From assembly GCA_964016885.1 (NCBI GenBank), contig OZ024764.1:23560001-23624000 (forward strand): a stretch of 64,000 nucleotides of DNA, in the 5' to 3' direction. A program made the translations under genes and the position numbers. The stretch comes from Eledone cirrhosa (lineage: Eukaryota). Below the pieces are notes generated by a model, which did no database searches, had not been told where the DNA came from, and saw only the letters and a list, made by a program, of their open reading frames with translations. Of the stretch, positions 1-64,000 are shown one piece after another; the stretch's first letter is position 1, and each line of letters starts with the position of its first letter.

Positions 1-23
1 ACACCTCAGACTATAATGTAAGT
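1..23 (+). promoter_or_regulatory. 3' end of putative non-coding exon 1 and splice donor (AAT|GTAAGT, GT at 18) of ZNF copy 1
   Basis: Same context as donors at 18210, 34204 and 53971, each about 100 bp downstream of the conserved promoter motif cluster. Confidence 0.6.
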
Positions 24-242
24 ATTATGTCTATTAATATTGTAGATTTAAGCTCACTTTTCACATCACAAATATATATTTTCTTGTTTTTTTCATTACT
101 GGAAATATAAAATGTTATCGTAATTATCTATATTTTACCTACCTCTAATTAATTAAAGTGAAAACTTTTGTTGTTGCTGAAAAATAAATTAACAAAACTA
201 AATATTTAAATATTGTAAAGGTCGTTTTTATATTATGTGATG

Positions 243-2061
243 ACCAAAAGACTGGTGCAGTAGCATCATTGTCAACTGCTACAAAGGTAAAGGCGATGCA
301 CTAGATAGAGGAAACTATAGAGGTATAAAGTTGATGGACCAGGTCATGAAAGTAACAGAAAGAGTTATAGCACAGCTGATTAGGGACCGGGTGAATATAG
401 ACGAGATGCAATTTGGGTTTGTTCCAGGGAAAGGCACCACTGATGCGCTCTTCCTTGTGAGGCAATTACAGGAAAAGTACCTAGCTAAAAGTAAGCCACT
501 CTACTTGGCATTTGTCGACCTTGAGAAAGCCTTTGACAGAGTTCCACGTGCAGTAATCTGGTGGGCTCTTAGAAAACTAGGAGTAGATGAATGGCTTGTG
601 AAAGCGGTACAAGCCATGTATAGGGGAGCAGTCAGCAAAGTTAGGATTGGCAATGAGTATAGCGAGGAATTTAGCGTACAGGTTGGGGTCCACCAGGGCT
701 CTGTTCTTAGCCCTCTCCTGTTCATCATAGTCCTGCAGGCAATAACGGAGGAGTTTAAGACCGGATGCCCATGGGAACTCCTGTATGCTGATGACCTCGC
801 ACTCATAGCTGAATCTATGGTAGAACTAGAGAATAAATTCCAAACCTGGAAGCAGGGACTAGAGAGAAAGGGCCTCAAAGTCAACATGACAAAGACTAAG
901 GTCCTTATAAGTAGACGAGAAAACAGAACCCAGATCCCCTCAGGGAAATGGCCTTGCTCAGTATGTAGGAAAGGTGTAGGTAGGAACTCCATTCTTTGCC
1001 CCAAATGCAAACAATGGGTACACAAGAGATGTAGCGGGATCTCAGGAAGCTTAATTAAGAATGTAGGATTCACATGCAGCAGCTGTGCTGAAACAGCAAG
1101 CAAACAGCCACAGGAAACAAGTACCACCAATCTCTGGGAGGGCCCTGTAGAAACAGTAGACAGCTTCTGCTACCTAGGTGACCGAATTAGCAACGGAGGT
1201 GGGTGCTCAGAAAGTACAATAACTAGGGTAAGAACGGGATGGAAGAAGTTTAGGGAACTACTACCACTGCTAGCTGCAAAAGGCTTCTCCCTCAGAATGA
1301 AAGGCAGACTGTATGATGCGTGTATCCGAACAGCGATGTTGCATGGTAGTGAGACCTGGGCGCTGAAGGTGGAAGACTTACGTAGATTAGAGAGAAACGA
1401 AGCCTGCATGCTCCGATGGATGTGTAACAGTAATATACGTGAACGACAAAGCATAAATGAATTGAGAGAGAGACTGAGCATAAGAGGAATCAAATGCTGC
1501 GTGCAGGAGAGGCGGTTACGCTGGTATGGACATGTGATGCGTATGAAGGATGACAGCTGCATAAAAAGGTGCAGAGCACTAGAAGTTGATGGAAACCGCG
1601 GAGTGGGGAGACCCAAGATGACTTGGGATGAGGTGATAAAAGCCGACCTTACCCAACTACACCTCTCAAAGTCAATGACACACGACCGTGACTTCTGGCG
1701 TCACGCAGTAATACAGGGTACCCGACCTCCCATGGGTACATGCTGAAGCATATAAACAATATGCCCCCCCCCCCCCCCCCACACACCGCAAGGTGGTCGT
1801 GGAGGTGCCACGGCAAAAAAGCACCCAGCCCACACTGTAAAGTGGACGTGTAGGCGCCACGAAAAAGCACCCAGCACTCACTGTAAATGAGGTTGGTGTT
1901 AGGAAGGGCATCCAGCTGTAGAAATCAAGCCAGATCAGTTCCTGTATGAGCAAGGCATGGTCAGCCGACCAGACACTGCCCACAACAGGACAACCCGTCT
2001 AACCCATGCTAGCGTGGAAGAACGGACGTAAAACGGTGATGATGATGATGATGATGATGAT
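243..2061 (+). mobile_element. 5'-truncated young RTE-clade LINE (family A), intact RT + PHD + C-terminus, (GAT)n tail
   Basis: ORF 331-1746 has FVDLEKAFD, GVHQGSVLSP, YADD and RRLRWYGHVMRM. (GAT)n tail ends at about 2061. The empty site ATGTGATGATATAATT is present in cassettes 2-4. Confidence 0.93.
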
Positions 2062-2371
2062 ATAATTAATATATTTTATTACAATTGTATAAATTTACAG
2101 TAGAATAACGTTGTAAATATGTTTTAAATATATACATAAATAACATAAGTGTGTAAATAACATTATAAATTGCTGGCAATTCCTTGAGAAAGACATTACA
2201 AATATATTGTCTAAACTGTGTATAATAATATAATTTATTGAACAATAATGATAAAGGAAAGAAAAACACAGTGGGAGATGGCAATTGACCACCAAGTGTG
2301 ATAATAGGTCACACCTCACACCTTAGGGGTTAACTACACACTTTGAGGCAAGCCAACACACTGGCAGCATT

Positions 2372-3100: not shown

Positions 3101-3158
3101 TGAGATATTAAGGTTTGAGTAGATTCTATCTTTTTGTGTGTTTGTATTTATAATCTTA

Positions 3159-4150: not shown

Positions 4151-6750
4151 ATTCTCTCTCAACTCATCTATGCTTGGTCGTTGATGCACATTGACATTGC
4201 ACATCCAACGGAGCATACTTGCTTCATTTCTCTCCAGCCATCGCATATCCTCCACAGTTGCTGTGCATGTCTCACTACCGTGCAGCATCACACATCTCAC
4301 GCAGGCATCACCAGCCATTCGTTCTTAGGGAGAAACCCTTCTTTGTCAACAGAGCAAGCAGCTCCCTAAACGTCTTCCAACCCGTCCTTATTCTAGATAC
4401 TATGGCCTCTGAGCACCCTCCTCCCATGCTAATTTGATCACCTAGATACCGGAAGCTATCAACCACTTCTATAGAACCTATCTGCATTTGAAAAATGTGT
4501 CTATCAATGCGACTTCTACTGTCAAATGTCCCTGTACATCTACTGCATATGTAGTTTTCCCTACCTGTTAGTTTGCCTGCTATCCCACTACATTTCTTGT
4601 GTACCCAAAATCTGCATTGTGTACATTATAGAATTTATGCCAGTTCCTTTTCTACATATTGAACAAGGCCATTTCCCTGATGGAATGACAGTTTTGTCCT
4701 CTTTTCTACTCAACACTTGTCTTAGCTAGGTTCACTCTCAGTCCTCTTGCTTCCAACTGCTGTTTCCATAGCCAGAATTTATGCTCTAGCTCCTCTACTG
4801 ATTCTGCTATAAGAACCACATCGTCAGCCTAGAGAAGTTCCCATGGGCAGCCAGTCTTAAACTCCTCTTTTATGGCTTGGAGGCCTATAATGAACAAGGG
4901 CGGGCTGAGGACCGACCCTGATGTACTCCTACTTGTATCTGGAATTCCTTATTAAACTCCATTCCTACCCTCACTTTACTGACAGCACCTCTGTACATAG
5001 CTTGCACTGTCCTCACAAACTATTCCTCTACACCTAGTTTCCTTAGGGACCACCAGATGACAGATTGGGGTACTCTATCAAAGGCCTTTTCTAGGTGAAC
5101 AAAAGCTAAGTATAGTGGTTTATTCTTCTCTAAGAACCTCTCTAGTAGTTGTCTCACTAAGAAGAGGGCATCTGTTTGACCCTTTCTCTAAGTTGCGCTA
5201 GTATTCTTTCTGTCACTTTCATAACCTGATCCATCAGTTTTATGCCCATATTATACTCCTCTCCAGAACATCCCCTTTACCTTTACCTCAATTTATGAGA
5301 ATACTGCTGCACCAGTCTTTGGGTATGACACCACCATATATAGCTTGATTAATGATGCATACAACCAGTTTACTTCCTACATCCCCTGATGCCTTCAGCA
5401 TCTCAGCAACTATCCCCAACAGTCCAGCAGACCTCCATTTTTCCTTTCCTTAATTACTCTTGGACCCTATAGTCGTCAATCTCAATAGCTGGTCCTTCTG
5501 TCGGGTCTACTGAAGGTAGACCCGACATTTCCAGGCCTCCCTTTTCTGATCATTCGTGACACTAAGTACATCGGCATCATCCCGTACAGATTTATCTCCA
5601 ACAACATCCTGATTTGCACTGACACACTGCCTTGCAATGTGGAACACTGCACGCCTCTGATCTTCCCGTCGCAGAACATTGGCAAACCTCCTACTCTCAG
5701 CCTCCCTGCATGCTAAGTAGACCTGACATCTAGCTTCTCTCTTAGTGGCTGTGTATCGGTCTCTACCCCTACAATTTTTCCAAACATTCCATGCTAGTCT
5801 TTTGTCTCTAATGGCTCTATCTACCGTGCTGTTCCACCACCAGGTCACCCTCTGTCTGGTTGGAGCTCTGCTCCAGCCACAAGTTTTATGAGTAACCTGC
5901 AGTAAGTTGTCACGTAAGAAATTCCAGTTATCATCTATGTCATACGACGCTAAAACGTCTTCTTTTTCATCATACACATCTTGAAGGGCTTGCCTAAATT
6001 TATATTTTAGTGAAAGGTCTTTTAGTTTCTAGACCTTCCTTTTTCACACCTTCTTGTATGTCTCTCTTTGTCTCTTGCTTACTGAGATATCACTAACGAC
6101 TAACCTATGTTGGGGGATTACATTGTTCCCTGGGGTATGCCTTAGTATTTGACACCATCTATCTGTCTTACTCCCTAACTAGCAAGAAGTCAATCTGTCT
6201 CATGTGCTCACCTGATTGGTAGGTTATTAGGTGGTTGGTAGGTTTCTTGAAGTGTTGCAAATGGTTAGTTCACTTGCATCACAAAATACAAGAAGCTTCA
6301 CTCCTTCGTTTCTTGAGCCATAACCATGACCACCATGTACCCCAGTGTATCCATCCTGGAGCTGTCCAACATGACCATTGAAGTCCCCTGCTATTATAAC
6401 TAGGTCTCTGTCCTTGTGGTTATCTCTACTTATTCCTTTTCTACATATGGAGCAGGGCCACTTTCCTGAAGGTGTCAGGGTCTTCTCTCCTATCCATTAG
6501 CACTTTAGTTTTGGCTAAGTATATTCTCAGAACTTACCATTTCAAATTCTATATCTATAGCTGGTCATCTACATAGAGAAGTTTCCATAGACAGCCAGTC
6601 TTAAACCTCTCTGTTATGGCTTGGAGAACTATGATGAACAACAGTGGGCTAAGAACTAAACCATGATGAACTCCTACCTGTACCTTCAATTCCTCACTAA
6701 ACATACTTTACTGACATCTTCTCACAAGCCATTCTTCTACACCTAATTTC
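4150..6750 (-). mobile_element. Degraded antisense RTE LINE (family C-like) plus a further RT fragment
   Basis: Minus ORFs 5507-5977 (TCGWSRAPTRQRVTWWWNS) and 4100-4318 (LHGSET..LERNEASMLRWMC), with many frameshifts. Confidence 0.88.
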
Positions 6751-7638: not shown

Positions 7639-8437
7639 AATACCAGAGGACATTGGCATTAAAGAGCACGTTACATCAGACATATCCTCAACATTAACCA
7701 TTTCTAATGAAAGACACTACCCATCATTTTCAAATAATTTTGAAAACACTCAACACTTTGAAGGGATTTAGTAATATAACTAAATTTCTCAGTATTAAGC
7801 TGCTATTTGGAACATAACTTTGCACAATCTCATGAAGTTACAATGGAAAGTTTTTAGATAAATATAAAGACTGGTATGAAAAGGATAAAACACTTTTATA
7901 TCAGTTGTTTCATCAACACTATTATTTAAAGACTAAAGGAAGCTGTTATACAGAACAGATACAACCTTGTTTATATAAATCTATGGGAGAAATACTGTGA
8001 AATATTTCTTGTAAACTCAATAACCCTTCTATTCTTTGCTGTCTGGAATATGTAGAAGATACAAAATAAAGCTGAAGAAATTTACACATGATTTTGTAAG
8101 ATCTTCATATATTGACAAAGTTGATAGTTGATGGAACTACAGGAGTAGAAATATTTCCATTTTTACAGGAATAACTAATCAAATGAAAACTAGAAAAATT
8201 AGATTCTTCACTGTCTGGAATATGTACAAGATGATTTTATATGTATATTAAACTTGAAGACATCAACAAAACAGTTTGTATCATCTTTAAATATAAAGAA
8301 AGACCAAGTTGATGGAAATATATCTGGAGGAATATGTTTTAGGAATAATATTATAAACATAAAGAAGAAAAATATCCATATATTGCGAGGAGAAAAATAT
8401 TAAAACTGTGAATTATGTGAGAAACTGGGGTGATTGA

Positions 8438-10456
<2,019 letters not shown>

Positions 10457-12110: not shown

Positions 12111-12204
12111 AGGTTTATATCTATTAATATAGAGATGTAGTAAAGTTTTCACTGTTGTATCTCTATTTTCTAAATATCTTAATAATGTTTCTCTACTATT
12201 TCAG

Positions 12205-12590
12205 AATATCACATGACCTTGACAGAAAAGAGTCTTTTAAAGACAACAGAAAGATGTTACATACAAGTGATATAAACTTGTTTAGTCTGTGGTGAATTAT
12301 GGTGAAATATTTCTTCTGAATTGAGATAAATAACAACATTTTCCTTTTTCACTGTCTGGAATATTTACAAGATGATTTTACATTCTGATTAAACTTTGGA
12401 TATTTACAAAGGAGTTTTCAAAATATTTGGATATTGACAAAGATCACATTTGGTAAAATTATGAACAATAGAAATATTTACATCAACATAGGAATATTTT
12501 CCAGAAGAGATGGGAAAATCATTATACCACTGTAATATTTGTGGTAAAATATTCTCTCTTCTTTATATGTAGAACATCTAACTAAACACT
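12205..12590 (+). pseudogene. Decayed older ZNF exon (acceptor, UTR-like sequence and one broken finger MGKSLYHCNICGKIFS..HLTKH)
   Basis: TATTTCAG|AATATCAC acceptor. TTCACTGTCTGGAATAT..ACAAGATGATTTTA is shared with the main exon 5'UTR. ATG at 12510. Confidence 0.65.
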
Positions 12591-12950: not shown

Positions 12951-13236
12951 TCTCTCTAACATATACATCAGATTTCCCTGCTAGCAAGGGTTTAATGAGT
13001 CTACTTCAACCAAGTAAGTACTGAAGTGCGGCTACTGATCTCCCAGACAGACCAAGGATCTGAGACTTATTTACATAAGGTCTCATTTGCTACTGAGTGC
13101 ACAGAAAAGGTTGTCATGTCTTTGTCATGATTGAAGGGTTCTCCGACACTATTGTCGGGCAAGCTTTCTATGACTAGATGTCCTTCACATGACCAACCAC
13201 ATTACAGCCTGTGTTGGGTGTGTTTATCATGTAGGT

Positions 13237-15282
13237 GAGACATAACAAACTGAGGGTTCCCCAAGGGCCACATAGGTCACATGTGTTGTCTGAGGGTTGC
13301 ACACTACAACTAATTATGTACACGACAACTTATTAGTCATTTAATAAAATATATTGCAGAAAGATTTGTTACTTAAATTTAGAAACATACAATGTACATA
13401 CAAATGTTTTAGCAGCATTCATGAATACAAAGTAATGAAGTAGTTTGATAAAAAAACTAAAATTTCACATGTCATCATATACTTGCAGATTGTAACATCA
13501 ACAAATACATTGTACACAAATAACAACAGTTGAAAACTGAACATTTATTTGCTACTATTCAACCATTTTTAGTCTTTTGTCCTGAGGCTTGACACTTCTT
13601 TCTGTTGACAATGTTTGGTATATCTGGCTGAAATGTCTGCACAGTTCCAACTTTAATCAGAAATGACAAGTGTTGATCTTTCAGCCTTGTTCTCTGAGAA
13701 GTTTTTGTTAAGCTAAGTACAGACTCAGTATGGGCAGTGATTTTCAGCTCTTTGCACATAAGAAAATGAATTAAATTTTCATCTGACAACGGAGACTTCC
13801 ATAAGCTAAGTTTTCTAATGAAGAACTTGATGTCATCATACAACTGAGTGATGGGTTTGTTTTTACCTTGTAATTTCAAATTAAGATCAGTTAATTGTGC
13901 AGTAATATCCACAAATAAAGCCAGATGTTGGAGCCAACTATTATCTTTTGTTTCATCTGTGTTTTGACCTTTCATCTCCAAAAACATAATTATTTCAACA
14001 AATAGCATCTTTTCAGCACTTTGTGACATGTCAACCAGCAGACTTCTGTGTAGAATGGAACATCGGTGAACTGATTATCCATATCTTCCAACAACTGGCT
14101 GAACTGACGGTGGTTGAGAGCACGGCCTCTGATTTCGTTCACTATCTTTGTGACCAAGCTAAGCACATGATGCAATTTTAAAATCTTTGAACATAAATTT
14201 TGCTGATGAATAATACAGTGAAAATGTGCAAATGATGAATCTAGATATGAGTTTTCTATTTTTGTTTGTAACTTGGCAGCAACACCATTATGTCTACCAA
14301 CCATATTTGCAGCACTGTCAGTAGATAAACATGCAAGTTTACTCAGATCAAAACCATGCAGACACTGCTTGACCTTCTCAAAGATGTCCTGGCTTGTTAT
14401 AGTGTCATGCATGGGGACCAGTTCAATCAGTTCTTCATAAATATTAAATTCACAGTCACAGGCCCTGATGAAGAATGCAAGCTGTACTATTCCAGTGATG
14501 TCAACAGTCTCTTCAATAGCAATAGAAACATGTTCAAACCTTGATGATACAGCCTTTAACTATTGTTTCAGATCACCTGACATTTCATTAATCTGTTCAG
14601 CAACAGTGTTCCTGGTTAATGAAATGTCTTTGAATAACTCTGCTTTCTCTGGACAATTTCAGCTGTTTTTACAAGACATTACTTTACAAAATCTCCTTCA
14701 CTGTAAGATTTCCCACTCATGGCAATCATTTGACTGAGTTCATAGCTTGCAGTTACGGAAGTGACATCCTCTTCCTGAATTAACATAAAACAGGTCTGTT
14801 GCTGTGTCAAGTTAGACTTCAATTCCTTGAGTCTTGAAACACACATTGGGCCTTCATATTTATCATAAGATTGATGGTTTGTTTCATAATGTCTTTTTAA
14901 ATTGTACTCTTTTGGCGTGGCGATGTAGTTGTTGCAAATTATACAGTGTATCTTTCTGTTCACCATTGGGCAAAAATACTGTAATTCCCACTTTTCTTGA
15001 AACACTTGCCCTTCTTCGTTCAATTTCCTTTTTCTCTTAGCTGGAGGAGCACTAACCATTTCAAAAACAAAATCTTTTGAAATTTTTAAAGAAAGTTTTC
15101 TGTTAATGAGCTGCACGTGATTAATGGAAGTTAAAAGTCGTTGACAAAATTTGCAAAAAAAAAATTATTGTATCGAAAATGTTTTAAATTTTATATTACG
15201 AAAATGAAATATGCTCGCACTGTAAAAACCTTTGTGTGGGCCGCAGGTTTGCTTGCCAAGGGCCGCATGTTTGACATGTCTG
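13237..15282 (-). mobile_element. hAT (Buster/Charlie/SPIN-like, GTF2IRD2-like transposase) DNA transposon, decayed
   Basis: 8-bp TSD ATGTAGGT at 13229-13236 and 15283-15290. Imperfect TIR CAGACATGTCAAAC. ORF pieces include FQEKW..C..C..KEYNLKRHYETNH, TDSAANMVG, HCIIHQQNLC and LNLKLQGK. Confidence 0.92.
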
Positions 15283-15429
15283 ATGTAGGTTACCAACACT
15301 AGGCAGGGCAGCATGTCCATCAGTGTCTTCTGCTACATTAACTACCAGGAGGTCACCACATGAGACAAAGACCAAAGACTACATTTCAAAGAAGGGTCAT
15401 AAAAGAACTAAATACAAAAGTCCTCGCAG

Positions 15430-15848
15430 CAAAAAACAAATAATTGAGCTTTGGGTCTAGGTCAAGGGGCTGAAGTGCTGTACCCTGTGGATAAGACTGC
15501 AAAAGTATTCGCGCCGGACAGTGACACCCACTGCAATAGCCACCCCAACCCCATGGGACTCCCTCTTCAGAAGGGCCACCAACGTTCTGATCTTACAGAG
15601 GAGCTTGGCAGTACAGGGTCCAAGTACTTCTGAGGTCTCGATGGTGACCGGTGTGAAGAGACCTACAATTGATGTCATCCCAGTTATGTTGGACTGTAAT
15701 ATACTGGGGTATAGAGAGGCCTTAACCTGTCTCAGCCGAGCCACCCAGGGTTGTGTCATCTAGGTACTAGACAGGGGTGACTAGACCATGTTGTCAACTG
15801 TCAGCACCAATAGGAGTGAGGCGAGTGGGTCCCCTTGCTAGACACCAT
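15430..15848 (-). mobile_element. Internally deleted fragment of a CRE-like RLE non-LTR retrotransposon
   Basis: Minus strand has a QGDPL-like RT remnant next to FTPVTIETSEVLGP (RLE C-terminus). Duplicated at about 30700-31110. Confidence 0.5.
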
Positions 15849-16090
15849 ATATAAAACGTATTTGCTAATTACTTTAATGAATAATTTGTTTCATACGTAA
15901 TTATTACTTTTAACACAATAGGATTTTGTACACGTGTTTGTTTGAAAACATCTTTCAAAGAAGTATGAGACAGTCTTTTGTCGTGTTTATTATAATAAAT
16001 TACTGTATGTTGAGCTGTTTTAACTTCTCCACCTTCTATTATTTCATATTGTTTTTGTAAAAAAACGAGATCTTTTTCATATATATATAT

Positions 16091-16300
16091 GAAGGCGTGT
16101 GGCTGAGTGGTTAGAGAATTGGATTCGGAATTGTGAGTTCGATTCTCAGACTGGGCGGTGCGTTATGTCCTTGAGCAAGACATTTTATTTCACGTTGCTC
16201 CTTCTACCTGGAGTTGCGACCGATAGATAGTATTAGCAATTGGAAAGACCAATGGAAACATTGTTTCCTCGGTCCGATTTGACGAAAAGTTGATCATAAA
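16091..16300 (+). mobile_element. tRNA-derived SINE (CORE-like body)
   Basis: A box TGGCTGAGTGG (16100), B box GAGTTCGATTC, TCCTTGAGCAAGACA body. Inserted in (TA)n. Confidence 0.8.
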
Positions 16301-17994: not shown

Positions 17995-18080
17995 CTTAGC
18001 TGTTCTATTTTAATTACATTTACTGATTTCAACTTTCATTTTTTATTACAAACTTTACATAATTTAATTCCGTAAAAATA

Positions 18081-18215
18081 TTTTACGTCACAAAAAAATC
18101 ATGAAGCATGCGCAGTGGTGCAGTTGTCGACTTCCTGTCCACGTGTCAGTCTTCCTACAACATCATTTAGACAACATTTCTGTAAATACTAAACACCTGA
18201 GACTATAATGTAAGT
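18081..18215 (+). promoter_or_regulatory. Putative promoter, non-coding exon 1 and donor of ZNF copy 2
   Basis: TTACGTCA (CRE-like), GCATGCGCA 18106 (NRF1), ACTTCCTG 18130 (ETS), CACGTG 18140 (E-box), GTAAGT 18210. Confidence 0.65.
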
Positions 18216-22856: not shown

Positions 22857-22879
22857 AATGGGAGTGTCTCTCACAGACG

Positions 22880-35886: not shown

Positions 35887-35953
<67 letters not shown>

Positions 35954-50049: not shown

Positions 50050-52068
50050 CAGTGGTACCTTGACTTACGAGTGTCCCAACTAATCGGCTGATTTTTTGCG
50101 TTGAGTTCCAGGGTAAAATTCGGGTTGCGAGTCAGCTTCAGATGCCCCGCCACTAGTTGGCATAGCGACCGCCACAGGGAATACGATAACACCCGCCCAG
50201 CATCCCATGGCTTCGAAGAAAGTGAGGGCGAAGGACAGTTCTGAGAAGAAGAAGCAGATGATGTCTATTGAATTAAAGAAAGAAATTATAGAAAAACATG
50301 ACCAAGGTGTGTGTGTAGTGGACTTGGCGAAGCAGTACGAGCGTAGAACTTCTATGATATGTACCATACTGAAGTAGAAGGAGTTGATAAAGGCTATAAC
50401 CCCAGCTAAGGGTGGTAAAATAATTTCTAAACAGCGGACCTCTATCCATGAAAATATGGAGAAGCAGCTCGCAAGAGATACCGTGATGAAGATTATAATA
50501 TGTGAGAAGGCACGAGCTATTTACGCTGATTTGCTGCAGCAGACCCCAGGTACTTCTACGGACGAGCCAGCCATCGGCAAGCCCTTTAATGCCAGTCGGG
50601 GTTGGTTTGAGAATTTTAAAAAGAGGACCGGCATTCACTCCGTTGTCAGGCATGGTGAGGCAGCGAGCGCGGATATGAAGGCAGCTGAGGATTACCTCAA
50701 AACCTTTGCCGGAATTATAGCAGCCAAAGGATACATCCCTCAGCAAGTCTTTAACTGTGATGAAACAGGACTTTTTTGGAAGAAGATGCCAAGGAGGACT
50801 TATATAATGGCAGAGGAGAAGAGGATGCCTGGCCACAAACCCATGAAGGATAGGCTAACCCTCGCACTGTGTGCCACTGAGCGGCGAGTGTAAGATTAAG
50901 TTGCCGCTCGTTTATCATTCAGAAAACTCCAGAACCTTTAAGTCACATAAGATTCTGAAAGAAAAACTGCAGTTTATGTGGAGGGCAAACCCGAGGTCAT
51001 GGGTCACCAGGTAGTTCTTTGTGGAGTGGGTGAATTTGGTCTTTGGTCCTGACGTTAAAAAATATCTCCATGAAAATAACCTACCCCTGTAAACCCTTCT
51101 TGTCCTACATAATGCACCTGCTCACTCACCCACCCTCGAAGAGTTCAAGTTTATAAAGGTCCTCTACCTTCCACCAAACACCACCCCTATCCTACAGCCC
51201 AAGGACCAGCAGGTACCTTCTAATTTCAAGAAGCTCTTCACCAAGCACCTGTTCAGTCGCTGCTTTGAAGTGACGGGGAGCACAAACTTCACCCTTGAGA
51301 GGTCTGGAAGGACCATTATAACATCGTGATATGCCTCAGAATTATCGATATGACATGGCAGGGTCTTACAAAGAGGACCTTGACCTCTACATGGAAGAAG
51401 CTGTGGCCTGAAGTTGTGTCTAAAACAGACTTTGAAAGACTCGAACCCGAAGCGGCAGTGGTGGAGGAGATTGTACCCCTCGGTAAGTCCATGGGCCTGG
51501 ACATGGATGAAGGTGACATCAACGAGCTCATCGAGGAGCACCCCGAGGAAATGACAACGAAGGAATTAAAGGAGCTACAGACACAGCAACACACGGAGTT
51601 TTTGCAGGAAATAGGTGACACAGAGGAGGTTATCTCAACAAGTGAGATGAAACAAACCTTATTAGACAGGTTTTTATTGAAAATCCCTGCAGATAAAAGT
51701 GAGGAAAGCGTGGCGAAAAGAGCAAACATCAGCGAATAAGATTCAGTTATTCAGTTCATCCTTTCTCCTCCGTCAACATCCTCAAGTCGTCTGATCTCCA
51801 AGATAGATGCTGTACATTATACTTAATAAAACTAGTTTGTTGTAGTACATTCTATTGTATTGTTTTTTGTATACAATATTTGTCATTTATAAGTACATTT
51901 TTCTTATTTAAAAACACGTAACAAAACAAACTGTGGTTTTTTGGGGGTCTGGAACGGATTAACGGCATTTTATTTTATTTCAGTGGGGAAAATTGATTTG
52001 ACATACGAGTAATTTAAGTTACGAGGTCCTCCACGGAACAAATTAAACTGTAAGTCAAGGTACCACAG
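50050..52068 (+). mobile_element. Tigger/pogo (TIGD1-like) DNA transposon, decayed
   Basis: TA|CAGTGGTACCTTGACTTAC ... GTAAGTCAAGGTACCACAG TIRs. ATG 50207 begins an HTH. ASRGWFENFKKR, VFNCDETGLFWKKMP and KDRLTL motifs, with stops and frameshifts. Confidence 0.93.
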
Positions 52069-52268: not shown

Positions 52269-53830
52269 AGATATATATATATATATATAAATGAAGAATA
52301 TAGAAATTATTGTAGCAAAAAGCCAACAGTATTCCATTATATATATGTATATATGTATATATAGTATAAAAGAGAAAACACAGGTAAGCATTAAGAGAAG
52401 GATTTTATCCAGGTATTTACGACCGTTTCATTGGTAAGTGCAACCTTATATTTCTATCCTGCAAATAACAGCCACTCAATTATAATTGTTGTTCACTGTC
52501 CAAATTTTCAAAATAGTAAGTTACTCTTGAAATAATTCTTAATATATAGAGAAAAACATTTATTTGGAATTGTATTTACTAGTATAGAGAGAGAGGAATC
52601 AGAAGGTGAGGGGACAGACGGAATAGTATAGAGAGAGAGGAAGGGGGAAGAGGTAGGAAGTAGAGTGACAAACTGAGATGGAGGGAGGGGTAGAGGTGGA
52701 AGGATTCTTTGGTCAGTTTTGACAGCAGACTTCATGTCGTGGAATGTAGTGAGTTAAAGAGAATTAAATTGATCATTTTTGGAGGGATGGATATATATAT
52801 ATATAGTTAAATATTAGACAGGAACAAAAAACAGGCAGTGCAAATGGTAGTTTATACCGAGAGAGAGACAGACAAACACATCTATACCCCTACTACGGTA
52901 AAACAAAACATATGTAAGGGGAGACAACTCTCGTTACATCCCCCCTTCTTTTTGATATACGTCCTTTATATACTTTGTTCAATGGAATCTGCTTTATTTT
53001 GTGTCCTAAGTAGATTTCTGTTTAATTATTTACGAGATTCACAATGATTCACGTAACCAAGTTACTTACATAGAGATATATTTCACATAGAATCACAAAA
53101 AATGAAAATATTAAGTCAACACTCTGTCAATCAGTCTCACATCACATGGGGTGCTGGAGTCTCCCTCTAATACTTTCTGAGACAGTCTTACCTCGAGTGA
53201 TAGCAAGGCTAAGATGTTGGAACTACCAAACAGCCTCATATGTATCATCTGACACCTCGGTAAGGAGAGCTGCCAACGATAACAAGAACCTCGTTGTCAG
53301 GGACCTATCTCCTCCAAACTTCTCCAACACCACAGACTAGAATATTCTACTCTTTATTCCCTATCAAATATATTTCAGTCTAGTCATTTGTCTTGTATCT
53401 TGTATATATATTTTCAAAACTAACTGTCACATTTGTGAGACCCCAGTTAGTGATGTTTTTCTCTCCCTCCCACATCCTACATGCTGTAGTAAAAGTGAGG
53501 GTCACTGCTTCTGTAGACGAACGAAATAAAAGTTAAACTACCAGTAATTATCGGCAAAGTATTTATTCCAGTCTGTGATGTTTGAGAAGCTGGGCTGCTG
53601 ACAACGAAGTTGTTGTCACTGTTGGCGGCTGGCTTTACCGAAGTACCCGATGACTCTTGTGAGGGTACTTAGATGTTCTGTCGGTTTAGCCTCCACGTGA
53701 CCCGATCTTACCGAGATACCCGGTGATCTCTGTAAGAGTACTTAGCTGTTCTATTTTAATTACATTTACTGATTTCAACTTTCATTTTCTTCATTACAAA
53801 CTTTACATAATTTAATTCGGTAAAAATATT

Positions 53831-53976
53831 TTTACGTCACAAAAAAACTTGACCTTTGACATTGAAGCATGCGCAGTGGTCCAGTTGTCGACTTCCTGTC
53901 CACGTGTTAGTCTTCCTACAACATCATTTAGAAAACATTTCTGTAATTACTAAACACCTGAGACTATAATGTAAGT
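53831..53976 (+). promoter_or_regulatory. Putative promoter, non-coding exon 1 and donor of ZNF copy 4
   Basis: TTACGTCA, GCATGCGCA 53867, ACTTCCTG 53891, CACGTG 53901, GTAAGT 53971. Confidence 0.65.
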
Positions 53977-54899: not shown

Positions 54900-57598
54900 A
54901 TTCAGGTTTTGATTTTACTTAAGTCTTGCCCATGTTTTTTTTTTTTTCCTTTTTTTTTTACACAAACTCACAATTTCGGTTTTTACTGCGGATTTACCCA
55001 TGCGAACTATTACACAAACTCACAGCCTTAGATTTTGTATTTCTAGCGTTTTTATTTTCCTTCTCTTTGTATGTTCAGTGCTCTTTCTCTCCCACTGTAT
55101 TTATCTGCCTCTCACATGACCACACTCCTCTCCACGCACTCATCATCTTCTCACTCCTTCTACACCTTCCATCCCTCCCCTTGCTCAACCCTTACTTCCT
55201 CCTCGCGCACAGCCCACCTAGGTATTCGTTCAACCCGCCGGTGGCCCGATGTTTCGACCGAACTATCACCGGCGATTGCCGATTGCTAAAGTTGCCACCA
55301 CTTTAACCTAGTCCACTCTAGGTGGGGGTGGCATGCGTCGAACGACCAAGAGACTTGCTTGGTGGAACGACTAATGTGACAACCGGTCAGCCTTCGACCT
55401 CTCATTCTCCACCAACTGCAGCACGCACGAGAGGAGCTAACTTGACCCCACCTACCTCTCCTCTCCTTCACGGCAGATTCCGAACGAATCCAACCCGTCC
55501 AACCACACCACCCCTACAACTGTTAGCTCACCACACAACCTCCGCTTTACTCCCACCGTTAGAACCACTGCTGTCTCCTTTACTGACTCACTCCCTTCAC
55601 CGAATTCCAACGCTGGCCCTCTACTGCCGGCTGTTGCCAGCCCGCCACCTGATTGCGCCCTCTGTGCCCGCACTAACCAGTACTTAAAGACAATTAAATG
55701 TCACCTATGCCACGCAAGCTACCACAGAAGCTGTGTCGGCATCACCAAAGCTCAAGCTAAAAGGCTTCAACACTGGACCTGTCATCGGTGCCACTTCAGC
55801 TCTGACTATTCCGTGGGGATGACCAACACTCTACCGACGACTTTGCCACAGTGATGTGTGGCTGCTGTCCACGCTGCCAGAACATTTGCCAACTTGCCCT
55901 CCTCATCCCCCAAGGTCATCCTCAAACTTGACCTCAGGAATGCCTTCAACTCCGTCAGCCGCAACATCGTCCTCGGCTCAGTAAGAGAGAGGGTCCCACA
56001 ACTCTACCACTTTGCTTGGCAGGCTTATCGGGAGCCCTCCTACCTCTCTTTCAGTAACCAGATCATCACCTCTGCCTCAGGAGTCCAACAGGGTGACCCA
56101 CTCGGACCCCCCCCCCCCCCGCACTGGACATTGATGACGTCACCAAGATGGGGCTGAGTTGGACCTCAATGTCTGGTAGCTCGACGATGCCTGTTTGGGG
56201 GGAACTCCGGATATGGTTCTCGCCACTGCCAACAGGATGGTGGAGGAGCTTGGCGCCTGGGTCTCCAGATCAATAGCTCCAGATGTGAGCTCTGGATCCT
56301 CAACCACCCGGCTTCTTAACACCAACAGCTGATCGACCTGTTCGCAGAGTCCTTCCCTTCCATCACGGTCCCTCCCCCGTCAGCTTGGTGCTCCTTAGGA
56401 GCCCCAATCATAGACCTGGCCTTCGAGTCAACCATCCAATCGAAGATGGTTGGCCTTGAGCAGCTGCTGAGGAATATTGAAGATATCGAACCCCATCAAG
56501 GTTTCTTCTTACTCAGGAACTACCTGTCTATTCCTAAGCTTCTGTATCTACTCAGGGTCAGCCCCTCTCACAGATTTCCATCCTGCCTCCAACGCTTCGA
56601 CGACCTAATCTTAGAGAGACTCGAGTGTCTGGTCAATGTTAGTAAGTGTTCGTCCCTCTCTCTCCCCTGCTTCCTTTCCTCCACCCAAGCTTGCAGCATC
56701 CTCTCCTCTCCAACATGGACTAGTTCCAACAGGGAGTTGTGTGAAGCTCTCCAGCAATGGAATGAGTTGGGCTTGTCTCTTCCTGAGAAGGTGGAGGACA
56801 GTCGAAGTCAGAGAACTTGGGACAGGATACGTTGCAATGCCACCTTCGACTCCCTCTTCGTCCTCTCAGATCAGTCTGCAAGGTGCCGCTTACCATCTGC
56901 CAGCGCCAAATACTCCGGTGACTGGGTCGATGCCTTACCCGTGGCCAACGTTGGAGGCCTACTCAGCCTGGATGAACTTCGTGTCTCCATCACCCTCAGA
57001 GTGGGAGCTGACGTCTGCATGGGTTTGAGATGTGGCTAACTCCTCGACTCCACAGGCCTCCACGGTCTTTCTTGCCGCCTGAATGCCGGCCACTTTGCCC
57101 GTCACACGGAGCTAAACTTTATTCTGAAGAGAGCTTTGGCCCGGGCAAACATCCCCTCGGTCTTGGAACCATCTGGGTTGTCCAGAAGTGACGGCAAAAG
57201 ACCTGATGGCCTTACCATGTGGCCCTGGTGGAGAGGCAGGTGCCTAATCTGGGACGTCACTGTTAGTGACTCCTTTGCTCTTTCCCACATCCTTGATGCT
57301 GCGGTATGGACGAGAGCCACAGCTTCGGCAGCCGAGCGGAGTAAGACCCTCAAATACTCTGATCTGTCGGCCAGCTACATTTTTCAGCCTGTGGCTTTCG
57401 AGACGTTTGGGGGAGTCGGGCCGCTGACTGCGAGGTTCCTTTCTTGTGTGCTGGCTTGCCTCAAAACTCATTAGAGAGGTTTTCCAGTACCCCTCGTTGC
57501 TGTCTTTTGCTCTGGTGTTGGCTCCGTTGTCCACCCCTTCCTTTACATTTTCTTTAATATTGCAACATTGAAGGAATTTATCTTTCATTGTATCATCC
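54900..57598 (+). mobile_element. Decayed CRE-clade-like non-LTR retrotransposon (PHD, RT, restriction-like endonuclease)
   Basis: PHD at 55654-55791. RT motifs AAVHAAR..LKLDLRNAFNSVSR..GVQQGDPLGP. RLE motifs RH..LN, DGKRPDG..WDVT..K.LKY..FQPVAFETFG. Both ends are approximate. Confidence 0.82.
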
Positions 57599-57630
57599 TT
57601 TATCTACAAATCTAGTCGTTTCCTGCTACT

Positions 57631-58466: not shown

Positions 58467-61400
58467 TTAATCTAATGTCACTAATAACTACTTTTATCAG
58501 TCAGTTTAATCTAATGTCACTAATAACTACTTTTATCAGTCAGTTTAATCTAATCTCACTAATAACTACTTTTATCAGTCAGTTTAATCTAATGTCACTA
58601 ATAACTACTTTTATCAGTCAGTATAATCTAATGTCACTAATAACTACTTTTATCAGTCAGTATAATCTAATGTCACTAATAACTACTTTTATCAGTCAGT
58701 TTAATCTAATGTCACTAATAACTACTTTTATCAGTCAGTTTAATCTAATGGCACTAATAACTACTTTTATCAGTCAGTTTAATCTAATGTCACTAATAAC
58801 TACTTTTATCTGTCAGTTTAATCTAATGTCACTAATAACTACTTTTATCAGTCAGTATAATCTAATGTAATAACTACTTTTATCAGTCAGTTTAATCTAA
58901 TGTCACTAATAACTACTTTTATCAGTGAGTATAATCTAATGTCACTAATAACTACTTTTATCAGTCAGTATAATCTAACGTCACTAATAACTACTTTTAT
59001 CAGTCAGTTTAATCTAATGTCACTAATAACTACTTTTATCAGTCAGTATAATCTAAAGTCACTAATAACTACTTTTATCAGTCAGTTTAATCTAAAGTCA
59101 CTAATAACTACTTTTATCAGTCAGTTTAATCTAATGTCACTAATAACTACTTTTATCAGTCAGTATAATCTAATGTCACTAATAACTACTTTTATCAGTC
59201 AGTTTAATCTAATGTCACTAATAACTACTTTTATCAGTCAGTATAATCTAATGTCACTAATAACTACTTTTATCTGTCTGTATAATCTAATCTCAGTAAT
59301 AACTACTTTTATCAGTCAGTTTAATCTAAAGTCACTAATAACTACTTTTATCAGTCAGTTTAATCTAATGTCACTAATAACTACTTTTATCAGTCAGTAT
59401 AATCTAATGTCACTAATAACTACTTTTATCAGTCAGTTTAATCTAATGTCACTAATAACTACTTTTATCTGTCAGTATAATCTAATGTCACTAATAACTA
59501 CTTTTATCAGTCAGTATAATCTAATGTCACTAATAACTACTTTTATCTGTCAGTATAATCTAATGTCACTAATAACTACTTTTATCTGTCAGTATAATCT
59601 AATGTCACTAATAACTACTTTTATCTGTCAGTATAATCTAATGTCACTAATAACTACTTTTATCAGTCAGTATAATCTAATGTCACTAATAACTACTTTT
59701 ATCTGTCAGTATAATCTAACGTCACTAATAACTAATTTTATCTGTCAGTATAATCTAGTGTCACTAATAACTACTTTTATCAGTCAGTATAATCTAATGT
59801 CACTAATAACTACTTTTATCAGTCAGTTTAATCTAAAGTCACTAATAACTACTTTTATCAGTCAGTTTAATCTAATGTCACTAATAACTACTTTTATCTG
59901 TCAGTTTAATCTAATGTCACTAATAACTACTTTTATCAGTCAGTATAATCTAATGTCACTAATAACTACTTTTATCTGTCAGTATAATCTAATGTCACTA
60001 ATAACTACTTTTATCAGTCAGTATAATCTAATGTCACTAATAACTACTTTTATCTGTCAGTTTAATCTAAAGTCACTAATAACTACTTTTATCAGTCAGT
60101 TTAATCTAAAGTCACTAATAACTACTTTTTATCAGTCAGTATAATCTAATGTCACTAATAACTACTTTTATCGGTCAGTTTAATCTAATGTCACTAATAA
60201 CTACTTTTAGCAGTCAGTATAATCTAATGCCACTAATAACTACTTTTATCAGTCAGTTTAATCTAATGTCACTAATAACTACTTTTATCAGTCAGTATAA
60301 TCTAATGTCACTAATAACTACTTTTATCAGTCAGTTTAATCTAATGTCACTAATAACTACTTTTATCAGTCAGTTTAATCTAATCTCACTAATAACTACT
60401 TTTATCAGTCAGTTTAATCTAATGTCACTAATAACTACTTTTATCAGTCAGCATAATCTAATGTCACTAATAACTACTTTTATCAGTCAGTATAATCTAA
60501 TGTCACTAATAACTACTTTTATCAGTCAGTATAATCTAACGTCACTAATAACTACTTTTATCAGTCAGTATAACCTAACGTCACTAATAACTACTTTTAT
60601 CAGTCAGTTTAATCTAATGTCACTAATAACTACTTTTATCAGTCAGTATAATCTAACGTCACTAATAACTACTTTTATCAGTCAGTATAATCTAATGTCA
60701 CTAATAACTACTTTTATCAGTCAGTATAATCTAACGTCACTAATAACTACTTTTATCAGTCAGTTTAATCTAATGTCACTAATAACTACTTTTATCAGTC
60801 AGTATAATCTAAAGTCACTAATAACTACTTTTATCAGTCAGTTTAATCTAATGTCACTAATAACTACTTTTATCAGTCAGTTTAATCTAATGTCACTAAT
60901 AACTACTTTTATCTGTCAGTTTAATCTAATCTCACTAATAACTACTTTTATCAGTCAGTATAATCTAATGTCACTAATAACTACTTTTATCTGTCAGTTT
61001 AATCTAATCTCACTAATAACTACTTTTATCAGTCAGTATAATCTAATGTCACTAATAACTACTTTTACAGTCAGTTTAATCTAATGTCACTAATAACTAC
61101 TTTTATCAGTCAGTATAATCTAAAGTCACTAATAACTACTTTTATCAGTCAGTTTAATCTAATCTCACTAATAACTACTTTTATCAGTCAGTTTAATCTA
61201 CTGCCACTAATAACTACTTTTATCAGTCAGTTTAATCTAATGTCACTAATAACTACTTTTATCAGTCAGTATAATCTAATGTCACTAATAACTACTTTTA
61301 TCTGTCAGTTTAATCTAAAGTCACTAATAACTACTTTTATCAGTCAGTATAATCTAATGTCACTAATAACTACTTTTATCAGTCAGTTTAATCTAATGTC

Positions 61401-61648
61401 ACTAATAACTACTTTTATCAGTCAGTTTAATCTAATGTCACTAATAACTACTTTTATCAGTCAGTTTAATCTAATGTCACTAATAACTACTTTTATCTGT
61501 CAGTTTAATCTAATGTCACTAATAACTACTTTTATCAGTCAGTTTAATCTAATGTCACTAATAACTACTTTTATCAGTCAGTATAATCTACTGTCACTAA
61601 TAACTACTTTTATCAGTCAGTTTAATCTACTACCACTAATAACTAACC
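58467..61648 (+). repeat. 39-bp satellite, about 81 units (3.2 kb)
   Basis: Same unit and flanks as 6964-7497. Source of the MSLITTFISQFNL ORFs. Confidence 0.98.
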
Positions 61649-62393
61649 TATGTTAGGCAGCACATTCTTCACCAAGGAAGGCCTTAGTATTTATTACAGT
61701 CCATTTATCAATATAACTAAATTTCTCAGTATTAAGCTGCTCTTTGGAACATAATTTTGCACAATTTCATGAAGTTACAATGGAAAGTTTTTAGATAAAT
61801 ATAAAGACTGGTATGAAAAGGATAAAACACTTTTATATCAGTTGTTTCATCAACACTATTATTTAAAGATTAAAGGAAGCTGTTATACAGAACAGATACA
61901 ACCTTGTTTATATAAATCTATGGGAGAAATACTGTGAAATATTTCTTGTAAACTCAATAACCCTTCTATTCTTTGCTGTCTGGAATATGTAGAAGATACA
62001 AAATAAAGCAGAAGAAATTTACACATGATTTTGTAAGATCTTCATATATTGACAAAGATGATAGTAGATGGAACTACAGGAGTAGAAATATTTCCATTAT
62101 TACAGGAATAACTAATCAAATAAAAACCAGAAAAATTAGATTCTTCACTGTCTGGAATATGTACAAGATGATTTTATATGTATATTAAACTTGAAGACAT
62201 CTACAAAACAGTTTGTATCATCTTTAAATATAAAGAAAGACCAAAGTTGATGGAAATATATCTGGAGGAATATGTTTTAGGAATAATATTATAAATATAA
62301 AGAAGAGAAATATCCATATATTGACTGAAGAAAAATATTAAAACTGTGAATTATGTGAGAAACTGAGGTCATTGATATCTTTTAGTAGGAGTT

Positions 62394-64000
62394 ATGTCGA
62401 AAAATATAGTAAAATCACCATTCCACTGTGATATCTGTGGTAAATCATTCTCTCGTAGTAATCACCTAACTACTCACAAACGTATTCATACAGGAGAGAA
62501 GCCTTATAAGTGTGATATCTGTAACAAATCATTCAGTCACAGTAGTAGCGTCAGAGTTCACAAACGTATTCATACAGGAGAAGAGCCATTCCACTGTGAC
62601 ATCTGTAGTAAATCATTCTCTTGCAGAGATAGCTTAACTGATCACAAACGTATTCATACAGGAGAGAAGCCACATCACTGTGACATCTGTGGTAAATCAT
62701 TCTCTTGCAGAGATAGCTTAACTACTCACAAACGTATTCATACAGGAGAGAAGCCATATCACTGTGATATCTGCGGTAAATCATTCGCTGACAGAAGTTG
62801 CTTAGCTACCCACAGACGTACTCATACAGGAGAGAAGCCATATCACTGTGACATCTGCGGTAATTCATTCTCTCAGAGCAATCACCTAACTACTCACAAA
62901 CGTATTCATACAGGAGAGAAGACATATCAGTGTGACATCTGTGGTAATTCATTCTCTCGTAGTGATAACCTAACTACTCACAAACGTACTCATACGGGAG
63001 ACAAACCATATCACTGTGACATCTGTGGTAAATCATTTGCTGACAGAAGTTGCTTAGCTACCCACAGACGTACTCATACAGGAGAGAAGCCATATCACTG
63101 TGACATCTGCGGTAATTCATTCTCTCGTAGTAATAACCTAACTACTCACAAACGTATTCATACAGGAGAGAAGACATATCAGTGTGACATCTGTGGTAAT
63201 TCATTCTCTCATAGTAATAACCTAACTACTCACAAACGTACTCATACAGGAGAGAAGCCATATCACTGTGACATCTGTGGTAAATCATTCTCTCGTAATC
63301 ACCTAACTCTCCACAAACGTACTCATACAGGAGAGAAGCCATATCACTGTGACATCTGTGGTAAATCATTCTCTCATAGTAATCTCCTAACTATCCACAA
63401 ACGTACTCATACAGGAGAGAAGCCATATCACTGTGACATCTGTGGTAAATCATTCTCTCAAAGTAATCACCTAACTCTCCACAAACGTACTCATACAGGA
63501 GAGAAGCCATATCACTGTGACATCTGTGGTAAATCATTCTCTCGTAGTAATCACCTAACTATCCACAAACGTACTCATACAGGAGAGAAGCCATATCACT
63601 GTGACATCTGTGGTAAATCATTCTCTCATAGTAATCTCCTAACTATCCACAAACGTACTCATACAGGAGAGAAGCCATATCACTGTGACATCTGTGGTAA
63701 ATCATTCTCTCAAAGTAATCACCTAACTCTCCACAAACGTACTCATACAGGAGAGAAGCCATATCACTGTGACATCTGTGGTAAATCATTCTCTCGTAGT
63801 AATCACCTAACTATCCACAAACGTACTCATACAGGAGAGAAGCCATATCACTGTGACATCTGTGGTAAATCATTCTCTCATAGTAATCACCTAACTCTCC
63901 ACAAACGTACTCATACAGGAGAGAAGCCATATCACTGTGACATCTGTGGTAAATCATTCTCTCGTAGTAATCACCTAACTATCCACAAACGTACTCATAC
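62394..64000 (+). CDS. Poly-C2H2 zinc-finger protein copy 4, at least 19 fingers, open to the window end
   Basis: ATG 62394 [17 protein letters not shown]. Hand-translated with no stop to 64000, which is why it is missing from the ORF track. Confidence 0.9.

What the first reader, a model, noticed from the sequence alone, without database searches (positions are those of the whole stretch)
1..64000. Duplicating cassette of effector-less zinc-finger genes embedded in transposons
Seen: four head-to-tail cassettes (donors 18, 18210, 34204, 53971), each encoding an ~8-aa leader followed only by fingers, with no KRAB, SCAN, ZAD or BTB. Gene skeleton and promoter are conserved while finger number (about 23, 14, 7, 19 or more) and TE content differ. 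Established: cephalopods have large clustered C2H2 expansions, and vertebrate KRAB-ZFP clusters co-evolve with TEs. Inference: this may be an independent, effector-free TE-recognition repertoire that grows by whole-gene duplication and diversifies by finger shuffling.
Basis: partly seen in the sequence, partly recalled or inferred. Interest (0 to 1): 0.75.

Follow-up and report, generated by a model that had tools for sequence, protein, structure and literature searches.

The report
Young 200-gene finger-only zinc-finger array
The window is a slice of a 4.7-megabase run of over 200 near-identical gene copies, likely from an octopus, whose proteins are nothing but reshuffled zinc fingers; they likely bind DNA and may recognise transposons, which is untested, already proposed for octopus, and could be tested here with one knockdown reagent.

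Summary
Observation confirmed and much larger than the window. The four cassettes belong to an array of at least 203 copies over about 4.7 Mb of one chromosome-scale contig of a cephalopod genome; flanks differ by only 3-4%. Effector-less is supported: a processed retrocopy on another contig and a contig of a public run both join non-coding exon 1 directly to the finger exon, and all 167 genes examined have an in-frame stop just before the ATG. 125 of 167 have full reading frames, with 137 different finger arrays built from shared modules. Cys/His changes are depleted; base-contact residues vary most (omega 1.3-2.1; the likelihood check is borderline); the youngest duplicates look neutral. The transposons are mostly co-duplicated passengers, so they give no evidence of TE recognition. 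Copy 1 is frameshifted; copy 4 lacks its acceptor. Known kind: finger-only tandem expansions are described in aphid and milkweed bug, and TE targeting by octopus fingers was predicted in 2023. The scan noted finger shuffling before on other DNA of this genome. Binding is untested, and the copy count may be inflated by assembled haplotypes.

The parts
1..17 (+). Copy 1, end of non-coding exon 1 (donor at 18; promoter lies just before the window)
7639..8455 (+). Copy 1, 5' UTR part of exon 2, long form (817 nt, 15 upstream ATGs)
   Evidence: long form is exonic in retrocopy L214
8456..10410 (+). Copy 1 finger array, about 23-24 units, disrupted (frame ends after 151 aa; two frameshifts); same lesions in a twin 1.0 Mb away
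12130..12560 (+). Relic of an older paralogue (acceptor, UTR, short leader, one decayed finger), carried in almost every cassette
   Evidence: 66-74% alike to the live gene's acceptor and UTR
17995..18140 (+). Copy 2 shared promoter (CRE-, NRF1- and ETS-like motifs; motif names recalled)
   Evidence: 40 scored copies 95-100% alike
18141..18209 (+). Copy 2 non-coding exon 1; 5' end taken from the retrocopy
23242..23447 (+). Copy 2, 5' UTR part of exon 2, short form (206 nt, 2 upstream ATGs)
   Evidence: joint 18209 to 23242, GT..AG
23448..24647 (+). Copy 2 ORF: 9-aa leader plus 14 C2H2 fingers, intact (399 aa)
25475..25900 (+). Older-paralogue relic, cassette 2
33986..34203 (+). Copy 3 promoter and exon 1
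42730..42905 (+). Copy 3, 5' UTR part of exon 2 (short form)
42906..43517 (+). Copy 3 ORF: leader plus 7 fingers, intact (203 aa)
44957..45390 (+). Older-paralogue relic, cassette 3
53741..53970 (+). Copy 4 promoter and exon 1
62394..64000 (+). Copy 4 ORF, open (594 aa, about 21 fingers, ends just beyond the window); canonical acceptor deleted near 61710
12965..16424 (-). hAT-type DNA transposon remnant, co-duplicated passenger (second copy 28271-31689, 95% alike)
   Evidence: (Spin-doc finger); family name recalled
4153..6414 (-). RTE-type LINE remnant shared with copy 3 (39673-41932) and other cassettes
   Evidence: clade name recalled
19523..22860 (+). Near full-length RTE-type LINE in the copy 2 intron; same family as the LINE fused to the retrocopy
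35950..38850 (+). RTE-type LINE in the copy 3 intron (3' part 97% alike to 243-2055 in copy 1)
31965..33056 (-). CR1-like LINE fragment, co-duplicated
   Evidence: clade name recalled
50276..51750 (+). pogo/Tigger-type transposon remnant, co-duplicated passenger
   Evidence: (HTH_Tnp_Tc5)
55322..57600 (+). Non-LTR element with PHD finger in the copy 4 intron, co-duplicated
58467..61645 (+). 39-bp intronic minisatellite, 81.6 copies (13.6 in copy 1, 2.6 in copy 3, absent in copy 2)

Best explanation
This is a young tandem array of over 200 two-exon genes encoding finger-only C2H2 proteins, amplified and reshuffled by what is likely unequal crossing-over, and likely working as a pooled repertoire of sequence-specific DNA binders whose main targets would be repeats. 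Shown: a cassette of about 18 kb (shared promoter, non-coding exon 1, one exon with a 9-residue leader and 2-25 fingers, plus passenger transposons) is repeated over 4.7 Mb; the message splices with no coding exon between; at least one copy was transcribed in a cell lineage that passes to offspring; finger modules recur in many neighbour contexts; zinc ligands are constrained and base-contact residues vary most. Inferred: crossovers between cassettes change gene number, crossovers in register within the 84-bp finger repeat change finger number and order without breaking the frame, selection per copy is weak (birth and death), and the near-identical promoters give co-expression. Inferred and untested: the proteins act by occupying sites or by recruiting cofactors through the fingers themselves, and the sites are enriched in young repeats (I put that last step alone at about 0.4).
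For: 203 exact matches of the start-codon motif; all 196 positions listed lie on C25 19.13-23.82 Mb, median spacing 18 kb. Retrocopy on C7 joins exon 1 to exon 2 exactly, 98% alike to the array, then continues into a LINE 5' end. Run X24 holds a contig with the same GT..AG joint. In-frame stop 1-12 codons before the ATG and no upstream in-frame Met in 167 of 167. 125 of 167 full ORFs; 137 distinct helix arrays; 106 helices found in 5 or more genes cover 1742 of 2222 units; 105 adjacent identical helices against 20 in shuffles. 103 of 147 site pairs between 5' and 3' flanks show all four gametes. The four most variable of 28 positions are -1, 3, 2 and 6. Cys/His omega 0.25 (33 against 130 expected), 0.42-0.51 on rare alleles only; stops 9 against 16-48; contact omega 1.3-2.1. 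Precedent: predicted octopus finger motifs are enriched in TE consensus sequences (PMC10547256, section 6); finger-only ZNF146 binds LINE-1 (PMC8896011, passages).
Against: No binding data and no motif prediction were obtained. In 40 youngest gene pairs omega is 1.01 (76 against 75.6). The likelihood check on 160 sampled fingers gave contact omega 1.55, only borderline against 1 (log-likelihoods -762.38 and -764.25, about p 0.05), Cys/His omega 0.64 not separable from 1, overall 0.89, and the linker fit did not move from its start value. Recombination between fingers can inflate apparent positive selection. 42 of 167 copies are disrupted. Long-UTR copies carry 12-18 upstream ATGs; protein was never seen. 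Run X24 is not on record as RNA. The embedded TEs are passengers. ZNF146 loss did not derepress L1 (PMC8896011), and in Hemiptera the finger-only expansion does not track repeat content (PMC6444547).
Confidence: 0.55

Rival explanations
1. The proteins are DNA binders that regulate host genes (neural or developmental), by competition at promoters or enhancers; repeats are not their main target.
For: Same anatomy and selection evidence. Expanded cephalopod C2H2 genes are expressed mostly in nervous tissue (PMC12513265, parts 1-2). Embedded TEs carry no signal.
Against: Very fast turnover (flanks 3-4% apart, 137 arrays in 167 genes, a quarter broken) fits poorly with stable host targets. Octopus-specific duplicates were highest in ovary in O. 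bimaculoides (PMC12513265), and the retrocopy implies germline or early embryo transcription.
Confidence: 0.2
2. The array is mostly a self-propagating tandem repeat that happens to hold a gene: a few copies matter, the rest drift, and the constraint pattern is inherited from the ancestor.
For: Omega about 1 in the youngest pairs; overall omega 0.74-0.95; 42 of 167 disrupted; promoter-less and acceptor-less copies and a dead paralogue carried in nearly every cassette; frameshifts only modestly depleted (18 contexts against about 29 by my arithmetic).
Against: Rare (recent) alleles still avoid Cys/His (25 against 58.5), Phe/Leu (4 against 18.2) and stops (9 against 23.9), and are in excess at contact positions (34 against 21.6). 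Homogenisation alone would not single out these positions.
Confidence: 0.17
3. The copy number is inflated because both haplotypes, or mis-joined repeats, were placed in one scaffold; the true array is smaller (this concerns the count, not the existence of the array).
For: 58 of 167 genes have a near-twin sharing over 90% of 21-mers, 37 of them at offsets of 0.9-1.1 Mb; ten twin pairs are 98.4-99.9% alike.
Against: Twins differ in finger number or stops in several cases; 109 of 167 have no such twin, and 116 distinct proteins occur among 125 full ORFs, so even halving the twinned part leaves well over 100 genes.
Confidence: 0.3
4. The product acts on RNA (long finger arrays as RNA binders) or the transcripts themselves are the functional product.
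For: Finger-only architecture; many upstream ATGs in the long UTR. RNA binding by some multi-finger proteins is recalled knowledge.
Against: Variation peaks at the four canonical DNA-contact positions, and TGEKP linkers typical of DNA-binding arrays are kept.
Confidence: 0.06
5. A hidden upstream coding exon supplies an effector through a second acceptor 9-12 nt before the ATG.
For: An AG-containing stretch just before the ATG is open in frame for 6 codons in 148 of 167 genes. Only the 15 best-supported joints were shown.
Against: Two independent records of the direct exon 1 to exon 2 joint; contigs of X24 run through the sequence upstream of that AG (table 4); the intron sequence common to all four copies is only about 450 nt and holds no Pfam domain; two older neighbours also start with a non-coding UTR and a short leader.
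Confidence: 0.04

Closest known systems
Hemipteran ZF271-like/APEZ expansions (pea aphid, Oncopeltus; PMC6444547, passages read)
   Same: Lineage-specific, finger-only proteins (3-45 fingers), tandem clusters, pseudogenes, finger shuffling, targets unknown.
   Different: There clusters of 4-8 genes with differing exon structure; here over 200 copies of one cassette with a near-identical promoter and start context, 3-4% apart. Independent origin is inferred, not tested by a tree.
Coleoid C2H2 expansions (PMC9068888 and PMC9795677, passages; PMC12513265, parts 1-2 of 7 and passages)
   Same: Cephalopod genome, chromosomal C2H2 clusters, lineage-specific clades of 104-495 genes.
   Different: The passages read date the octopod expansion to about 25-41 Ma and do not describe cassette anatomy, lack of an effector exon or finger-level selection. 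This array is far younger by divergence. Whether it matches one of their clades was not tested.
Zebrafish FiNZ-ZNFs and tetrapod KRAB-ZFPs (PMC10547256, sections 6 and 10, passages)
   Same: Clustered, fast birth and death, one finger exon, excess change in fingers; TE targeting shown there and predicted for octopus.
   Different: They carry an N-terminal effector exon; here exon 1 is non-coding.
Human ZNF146/OZF (PMC8896011, passages)
   Same: Finger-only protein; binds LINE-1, which shows that effector-less TE recognition exists.
   Different: Single conserved gene; its loss did not derepress L1.
PRDM9 finger minisatellite (recalled; lead from earlier finding e1-9557371)
   Same: 84-bp units recombined into new arrays with variation at -1, 2, 3, 6.
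   Different: No KRAB, SSXRD or SET domain; many paralogues instead of many alleles.

Membership tests
Tandem C2H2 (Kruppel-type) zinc-finger proteins | C-x2-C-x12-H-x3-H fingers joined by TGEKP-type linkers | tested here: met
Tandem C2H2 (Kruppel-type) zinc-finger proteins | Sequence-specific DNA binding | not testable with these tools
   Only indirect: variation peaks at -1, 2, 3, 6
Finger-only tandem expansions (ZF271-like/APEZ type) | No domain besides the finger array | tested here: met
Finger-only tandem expansions (ZF271-like/APEZ type) | Tandem clusters with pseudogenes and finger shuffling | tested here: met
Finger-only tandem expansions (ZF271-like/APEZ type) | Common descent with the insect family | not tested
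   No tree built; works like it, membership by descent not claimed
Coleoid C2H2 expansion | Cephalopod genome | tested here: met
   Molluscan hemocyanin domains, 39 matches; best single-unit PDB matches 4yd9_C 659 and 1js8_A 650 bits against 8tnv 460 and 1lnl 372 (that these are squid, octopus and gastropod entries is recalled). Octopus rather than squid is recalled from the finger consensus.
Coleoid C2H2 expansion | Falls in a published octopus-specific clade | tested here: inconclusive
   Two protein searches listed no cephalopod protein among the best 120; atlas gave generic C2H2 clusters
KRAB-ZFP / FiNZ-ZNF / ZAD, SCAN, BTB-ZF | N-terminal effector domain on an upstream coding exon | tested here: not met
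   Direct splice of a non-coding exon 1; no Pfam effector
KRAB-ZFP / FiNZ-ZNF | Positive selection on DNA-contact residues | tested here: inconclusive
   Counting omega 1.3-2.1; likelihood 1.55, borderline; 1.1 in youngest pairs
KRAB-ZFP / FiNZ-ZNF | Binds and silences transposable elements | not testable with these tools
   No binding or knockdown data; embedded TEs are passengers
PRDM9 | PR/SET methyltransferase with KRAB and SSXRD | tested here: not met
   two-exon structure

The most novel reading that the evidence does not exclude
A recombination-driven library of over 200 effector-free DNA binders, co-expressed from one promoter in the germline, that tracks young repeats and silences or stabilises them with no KRAB-like domain, through the fingers alone: PRDM9-style finger shuffling scaled up to a whole gene family. 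The subfamily with up to 18 near-identical fingers in a row would be its microsatellite-binding arm.
Probability: 0.25. Interest if true: 0.8.

Novelty: new member of a known kind. Interest (0 to 1): 0.47.

Why it matters
Whether cephalopod C2H2 expansions serve neurons or transposon control is stated as open (PMC12513265 discussion passage; PMC12988792 section 2.4). This array makes the question testable: 203 copies share the same 23 nt at the start codon and a 95-100% identical promoter, so one morpholino or a few CRISPRi guides would hit the family at once, as was done for zebrafish FiNZ genes. It also catches finger shuffling and birth and death at 0-4% divergence. If the proteins silence repeats without an effector domain, a cofactor route other than KRAB/TRIM28 must exist.

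Tried and rejected
Protein homologue searches with copy 2 and with the first 40 residues of copy 4 were swamped by vertebrate finger proteins; the atlas gave only generic C2H2 clusters. The run search listed no holder on record as RNA: no RNA holder listed, no evidence either way. Three runs of other organisms (X1, X3, X4) left exon 1 and most of the UTR uncovered at 85% likeness; not used as evidence. No read data were obtained for the finger exon, the 3' end or a DNA control, so the possible 3' UTR intron and the copy-number check stay open. A strict two-parent chimera test found only 2 of 137 arrays because finger gains and losses shift the register; shuffling rests on context counts and four-gamete counts instead, and the latter are also high within each flank (9 of 21, 25 of 36), so recurrent mutation or short conversion tracts contribute. 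The idea that the 5' UTR is a decayed effector-coding region found no support: no Pfam hit, and two older neighbours share the non-coding UTR and have unrelated 29- and 52-residue leaders. Target prediction from a recalled recognition code was not run, as too unreliable. TE density inside against outside the array was not tested (only 20 kb of control DNA fetched). Albertin 2015 was not held and is cited only second-hand. No structure or complex prediction was run. Supplements of PMC10547256 and PMC12513265 were not opened and may list orthologous genes or predicted targets.
Full report
Observation. A six-frame scan and self-alignment show four + strand cassettes. The donors at 18, 18210, 34204 and 53971 are identical, and promoter, exon 1 and intron start are 96-99% alike. 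Each ORF starts with the same 9-residue leader and then holds only C2H2 fingers: about 23-24 units (copy 1), 14, 7 and about 21 (copy 4, completed from the next stretch). Copy 1 is broken after 151 residues and has two frameshifts. Copy 4 has an open frame but its canonical acceptor is deleted. Only copies 2 and 3 are intact in both respects.

Extent. The window is G000:C25:23560001-23624000 of a 3.0 Gb genome. A 23-nt start-codon motif has 203 exact matches, none for the reversed control. The 196 positions that three listings gave all lie on C25 between 19.13 and 23.82 Mb, median spacing 18 kb, in 14 strand blocks; the few unlisted matches were not located. The right edge is near 23.878 Mb, beyond which lie older, more divergent finger genes. 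I fetched 140 of 176 listed genes outside a 584-kb contiguous stretch, plus that stretch, and extracted 167 genes from the 140 loci and the first 464 kb. Non-coding flanks differ by 3.3-3.8% on average, so the burst is young or is kept homogeneous by conversion. The genome has molluscan hemocyanin whose best single-unit matches are entries I recall as squid and octopus; octopus is my recalled reading of the finger consensus.

No effector exon. Run X24 (kind not on record) holds a contig that joins 18209 to 23242 across a GT..AG intron of 5032 nt, depth 170. A genome search for the exon 1 end not followed by G found 2 places, against 173 followed by G. One is an array copy with a mutated donor. 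The other, on C7, is a processed copy: exon 1 from 18141, joined exactly to exon 2, 98% alike over 481 nt of the long UTR, later followed by the 5' end of an RTE-type LINE. It fixes the splice, shows that the long UTR is exonic, suggests the start site, and implies transcription in a heritable lineage. The X24 contig differs from copy 2 at 2 places over 164 nt, as 26 array genes do, while the retrocopy differs at 3, so the contig more likely comes from array transcripts. The joint creates no ATG; all 167 genes have an in-frame stop 1-12 codons before the ATG and no upstream in-frame Met. Pfam finds no effector domain in 90 upstream or intronic frames or in the leaders of two older neighbours, which share the non-coding UTR. 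The finger-only design is therefore older than the burst.

Diversification. 125 of 167 genes have a full frame, with 2-25 detected units (median 13), 2222 units, 353 helices and 137 distinct arrays. 1968 of 2055 unit spacings are exactly 84 nt. 106 helices found in 5 or more genes make up 1742 units, and common ones have 5-23 left and 10-30 right neighbours. Adjacent identical helices number 105 against a mean of 20 in shuffles. 103 of 147 site pairs between 5' and 3' flanks show all four gametes, and both intron types occur with both downstream transposons. This is what unequal exchange between and within cassettes predicts; the strict chimera test found only 2 clear cases.

Selection. The four most variable positions are -1, 3, 2 and 6. 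Counting changes on a network of unique internal fingers, with rates from the flanks, gives omega 0.25 for Cys/His, 0.31 for Phe/Leu, 1.36 for contacts (1.67 in full ORFs) and 9 stops against 48. Using rare codons only, to limit recycling by recombination, gives 0.42-0.51, 0.21-0.34 and 1.6-2.1. Against this: 40 youngest pairs give omega 1.01, with Cys/His 7 against 12 and contacts 12 against 11; and a codon likelihood fit on 160 sampled fingers gives contacts 1.55 (borderline), Cys/His 0.64 (not separable from 1 on its own few synonymous sites, though its tree length is 7.5 against 44 for contacts), overall 0.89. I read this as real but weak constraint per copy, with suggestive, unproven diversifying selection.

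Transposons. In 584 kb with 30 promoters there are 24 hAT-type, 14 pogo-type, 18 PHD-bearing non-LTR and 11 CR1-like copies, nearly all in the same slot and mostly 91-100% alike to the window copy; junction probes recur 6-32 times, except one private to copy 1. They were copied with the cassette. A few RTE insertions are private or shared by few copies. Being embedded in transposons is thus no evidence for recognising them.

Caveat on number. 58 of 167 genes have a near-twin, 37 at 0.9-1.1 Mb offsets, 98.4-99.9% alike. These may be recent block duplications or two haplotypes. The array stands either way.

What is known. Cephalopod C2H2 clusters and octopus-specific clades are published (PMC9068888, PMC9795677 passages; PMC12513265 parts 1-2 of 7 and passages). 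Wells et al. predicted that octopus finger motifs are enriched in TE consensus sequences and showed TE derepression for zebrafish FiNZ genes (PMC10547256 sections 6, 10 and passages); a 2026 review repeats the argument (PMC12988792 section 2.4). Finger-only tandem expansions with pseudogenes and shuffling are described for aphid and Oncopeltus, without correlation to repeat content (PMC6444547 passages). Finger-only ZNF146 binds LINE-1 but is not needed to silence it (PMC8896011 passages). Three searches listed no paper on this array or on its two-exon anatomy; the library is partial and supplements were not opened.

Verdict. Real, well-defined and larger than reported. It works like the finger-only insect expansions and evolves like KRAB or FiNZ clusters, but fails their effector test. 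New member of a known kind. The value lies in its youth, the retrocopy that fixes the gene model, and the shared start context that allows a family-wide knockdown. TE recognition remains an untested hypothesis already in print. Interest 0.47.

Noticed in passing
L214 (G000:C7:49446627-49449645, minus strand): Chimeric retrocopy: about 550 nt of the spliced zinc-finger message (exon 1 plus long UTR), some 545 nt of unassigned sequence, then the 5' end of an RTE-type LINE 93.5% alike to window 19524-20000. Looks like a template switch during LINE insertion (known for L1; search listing only). The 3' end and target-site duplication were not seen.
   Followed up: partly
window 12130-12560, 25475-25900, 44957-45390: Each cassette carries a dead fragment of an older finger-only paralogue, so the duplicated unit spans one live and one dead gene.
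   Followed up: partly
window 24851-25069: Conserved GT donor about 200 nt after the stop codon and a good acceptor at 25069, with AATAAA at 24910 between them: possible 3' UTR intron (would invite nonsense-mediated decay) competing with polyadenylation. Not tested with reads.
   Followed up: no
G000:C25:20560953, 20706519, 20353478, 21572115 (L090, L096, L088, L125): Subfamily of about 10 genes with 6-18 near-identical Lys/Arg-rich fingers, mostly in runs; by a recalled code these would bind a G-rich triplet repeat.
   Followed up: no
window 23405-23406 against 7803-8408: A genomic deletion of about 600 nt shortens the 5' UTR and removes most upstream ATGs in 59 of 157 copies; the intact fraction is similar for short (45 of 59) and long (67 of 83) forms.
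   Followed up: partly
G000:C25:21.01-21.30 Mb against 21.90-22.05 Mb; 22.65-22.74 Mb against 23.74-23.82 Mb: Multi-gene blocks repeated at 0.87-1.08 Mb offsets with 98.4-99.9% identity, including an inverted block: recent higher-order duplication or assembled haplotypes.
   Followed up: partly
G000:C25:23877926, 23893938, 23936538 (L196, L198, L202): Right edge of the array: a last cassette with a different finger set, then older finger genes with the same non-coding UTR and leaders of 29 and 52 residues.
   Followed up: partly
G000:C25:23537817 and 23750895: Copies with no promoter or exon 1 between them and the previous cassette, likely products of unequal crossover.
   Followed up: no
window 58467-61645, 11111-11904, 17085-17342, 18744-19085: Cassette-borne minisatellites (39, 82, 73 and 62 bp) vary widely in copy number between cassettes, another sign of unequal exchange.
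   Followed up: no
G000:C1:173.74-173.91 Mb and C26:21.93-22.02 Mb: Hemocyanin genes at two loci, three copies on C1 and an inverted pair on C26, plus fragments on C27.
   Followed up: no
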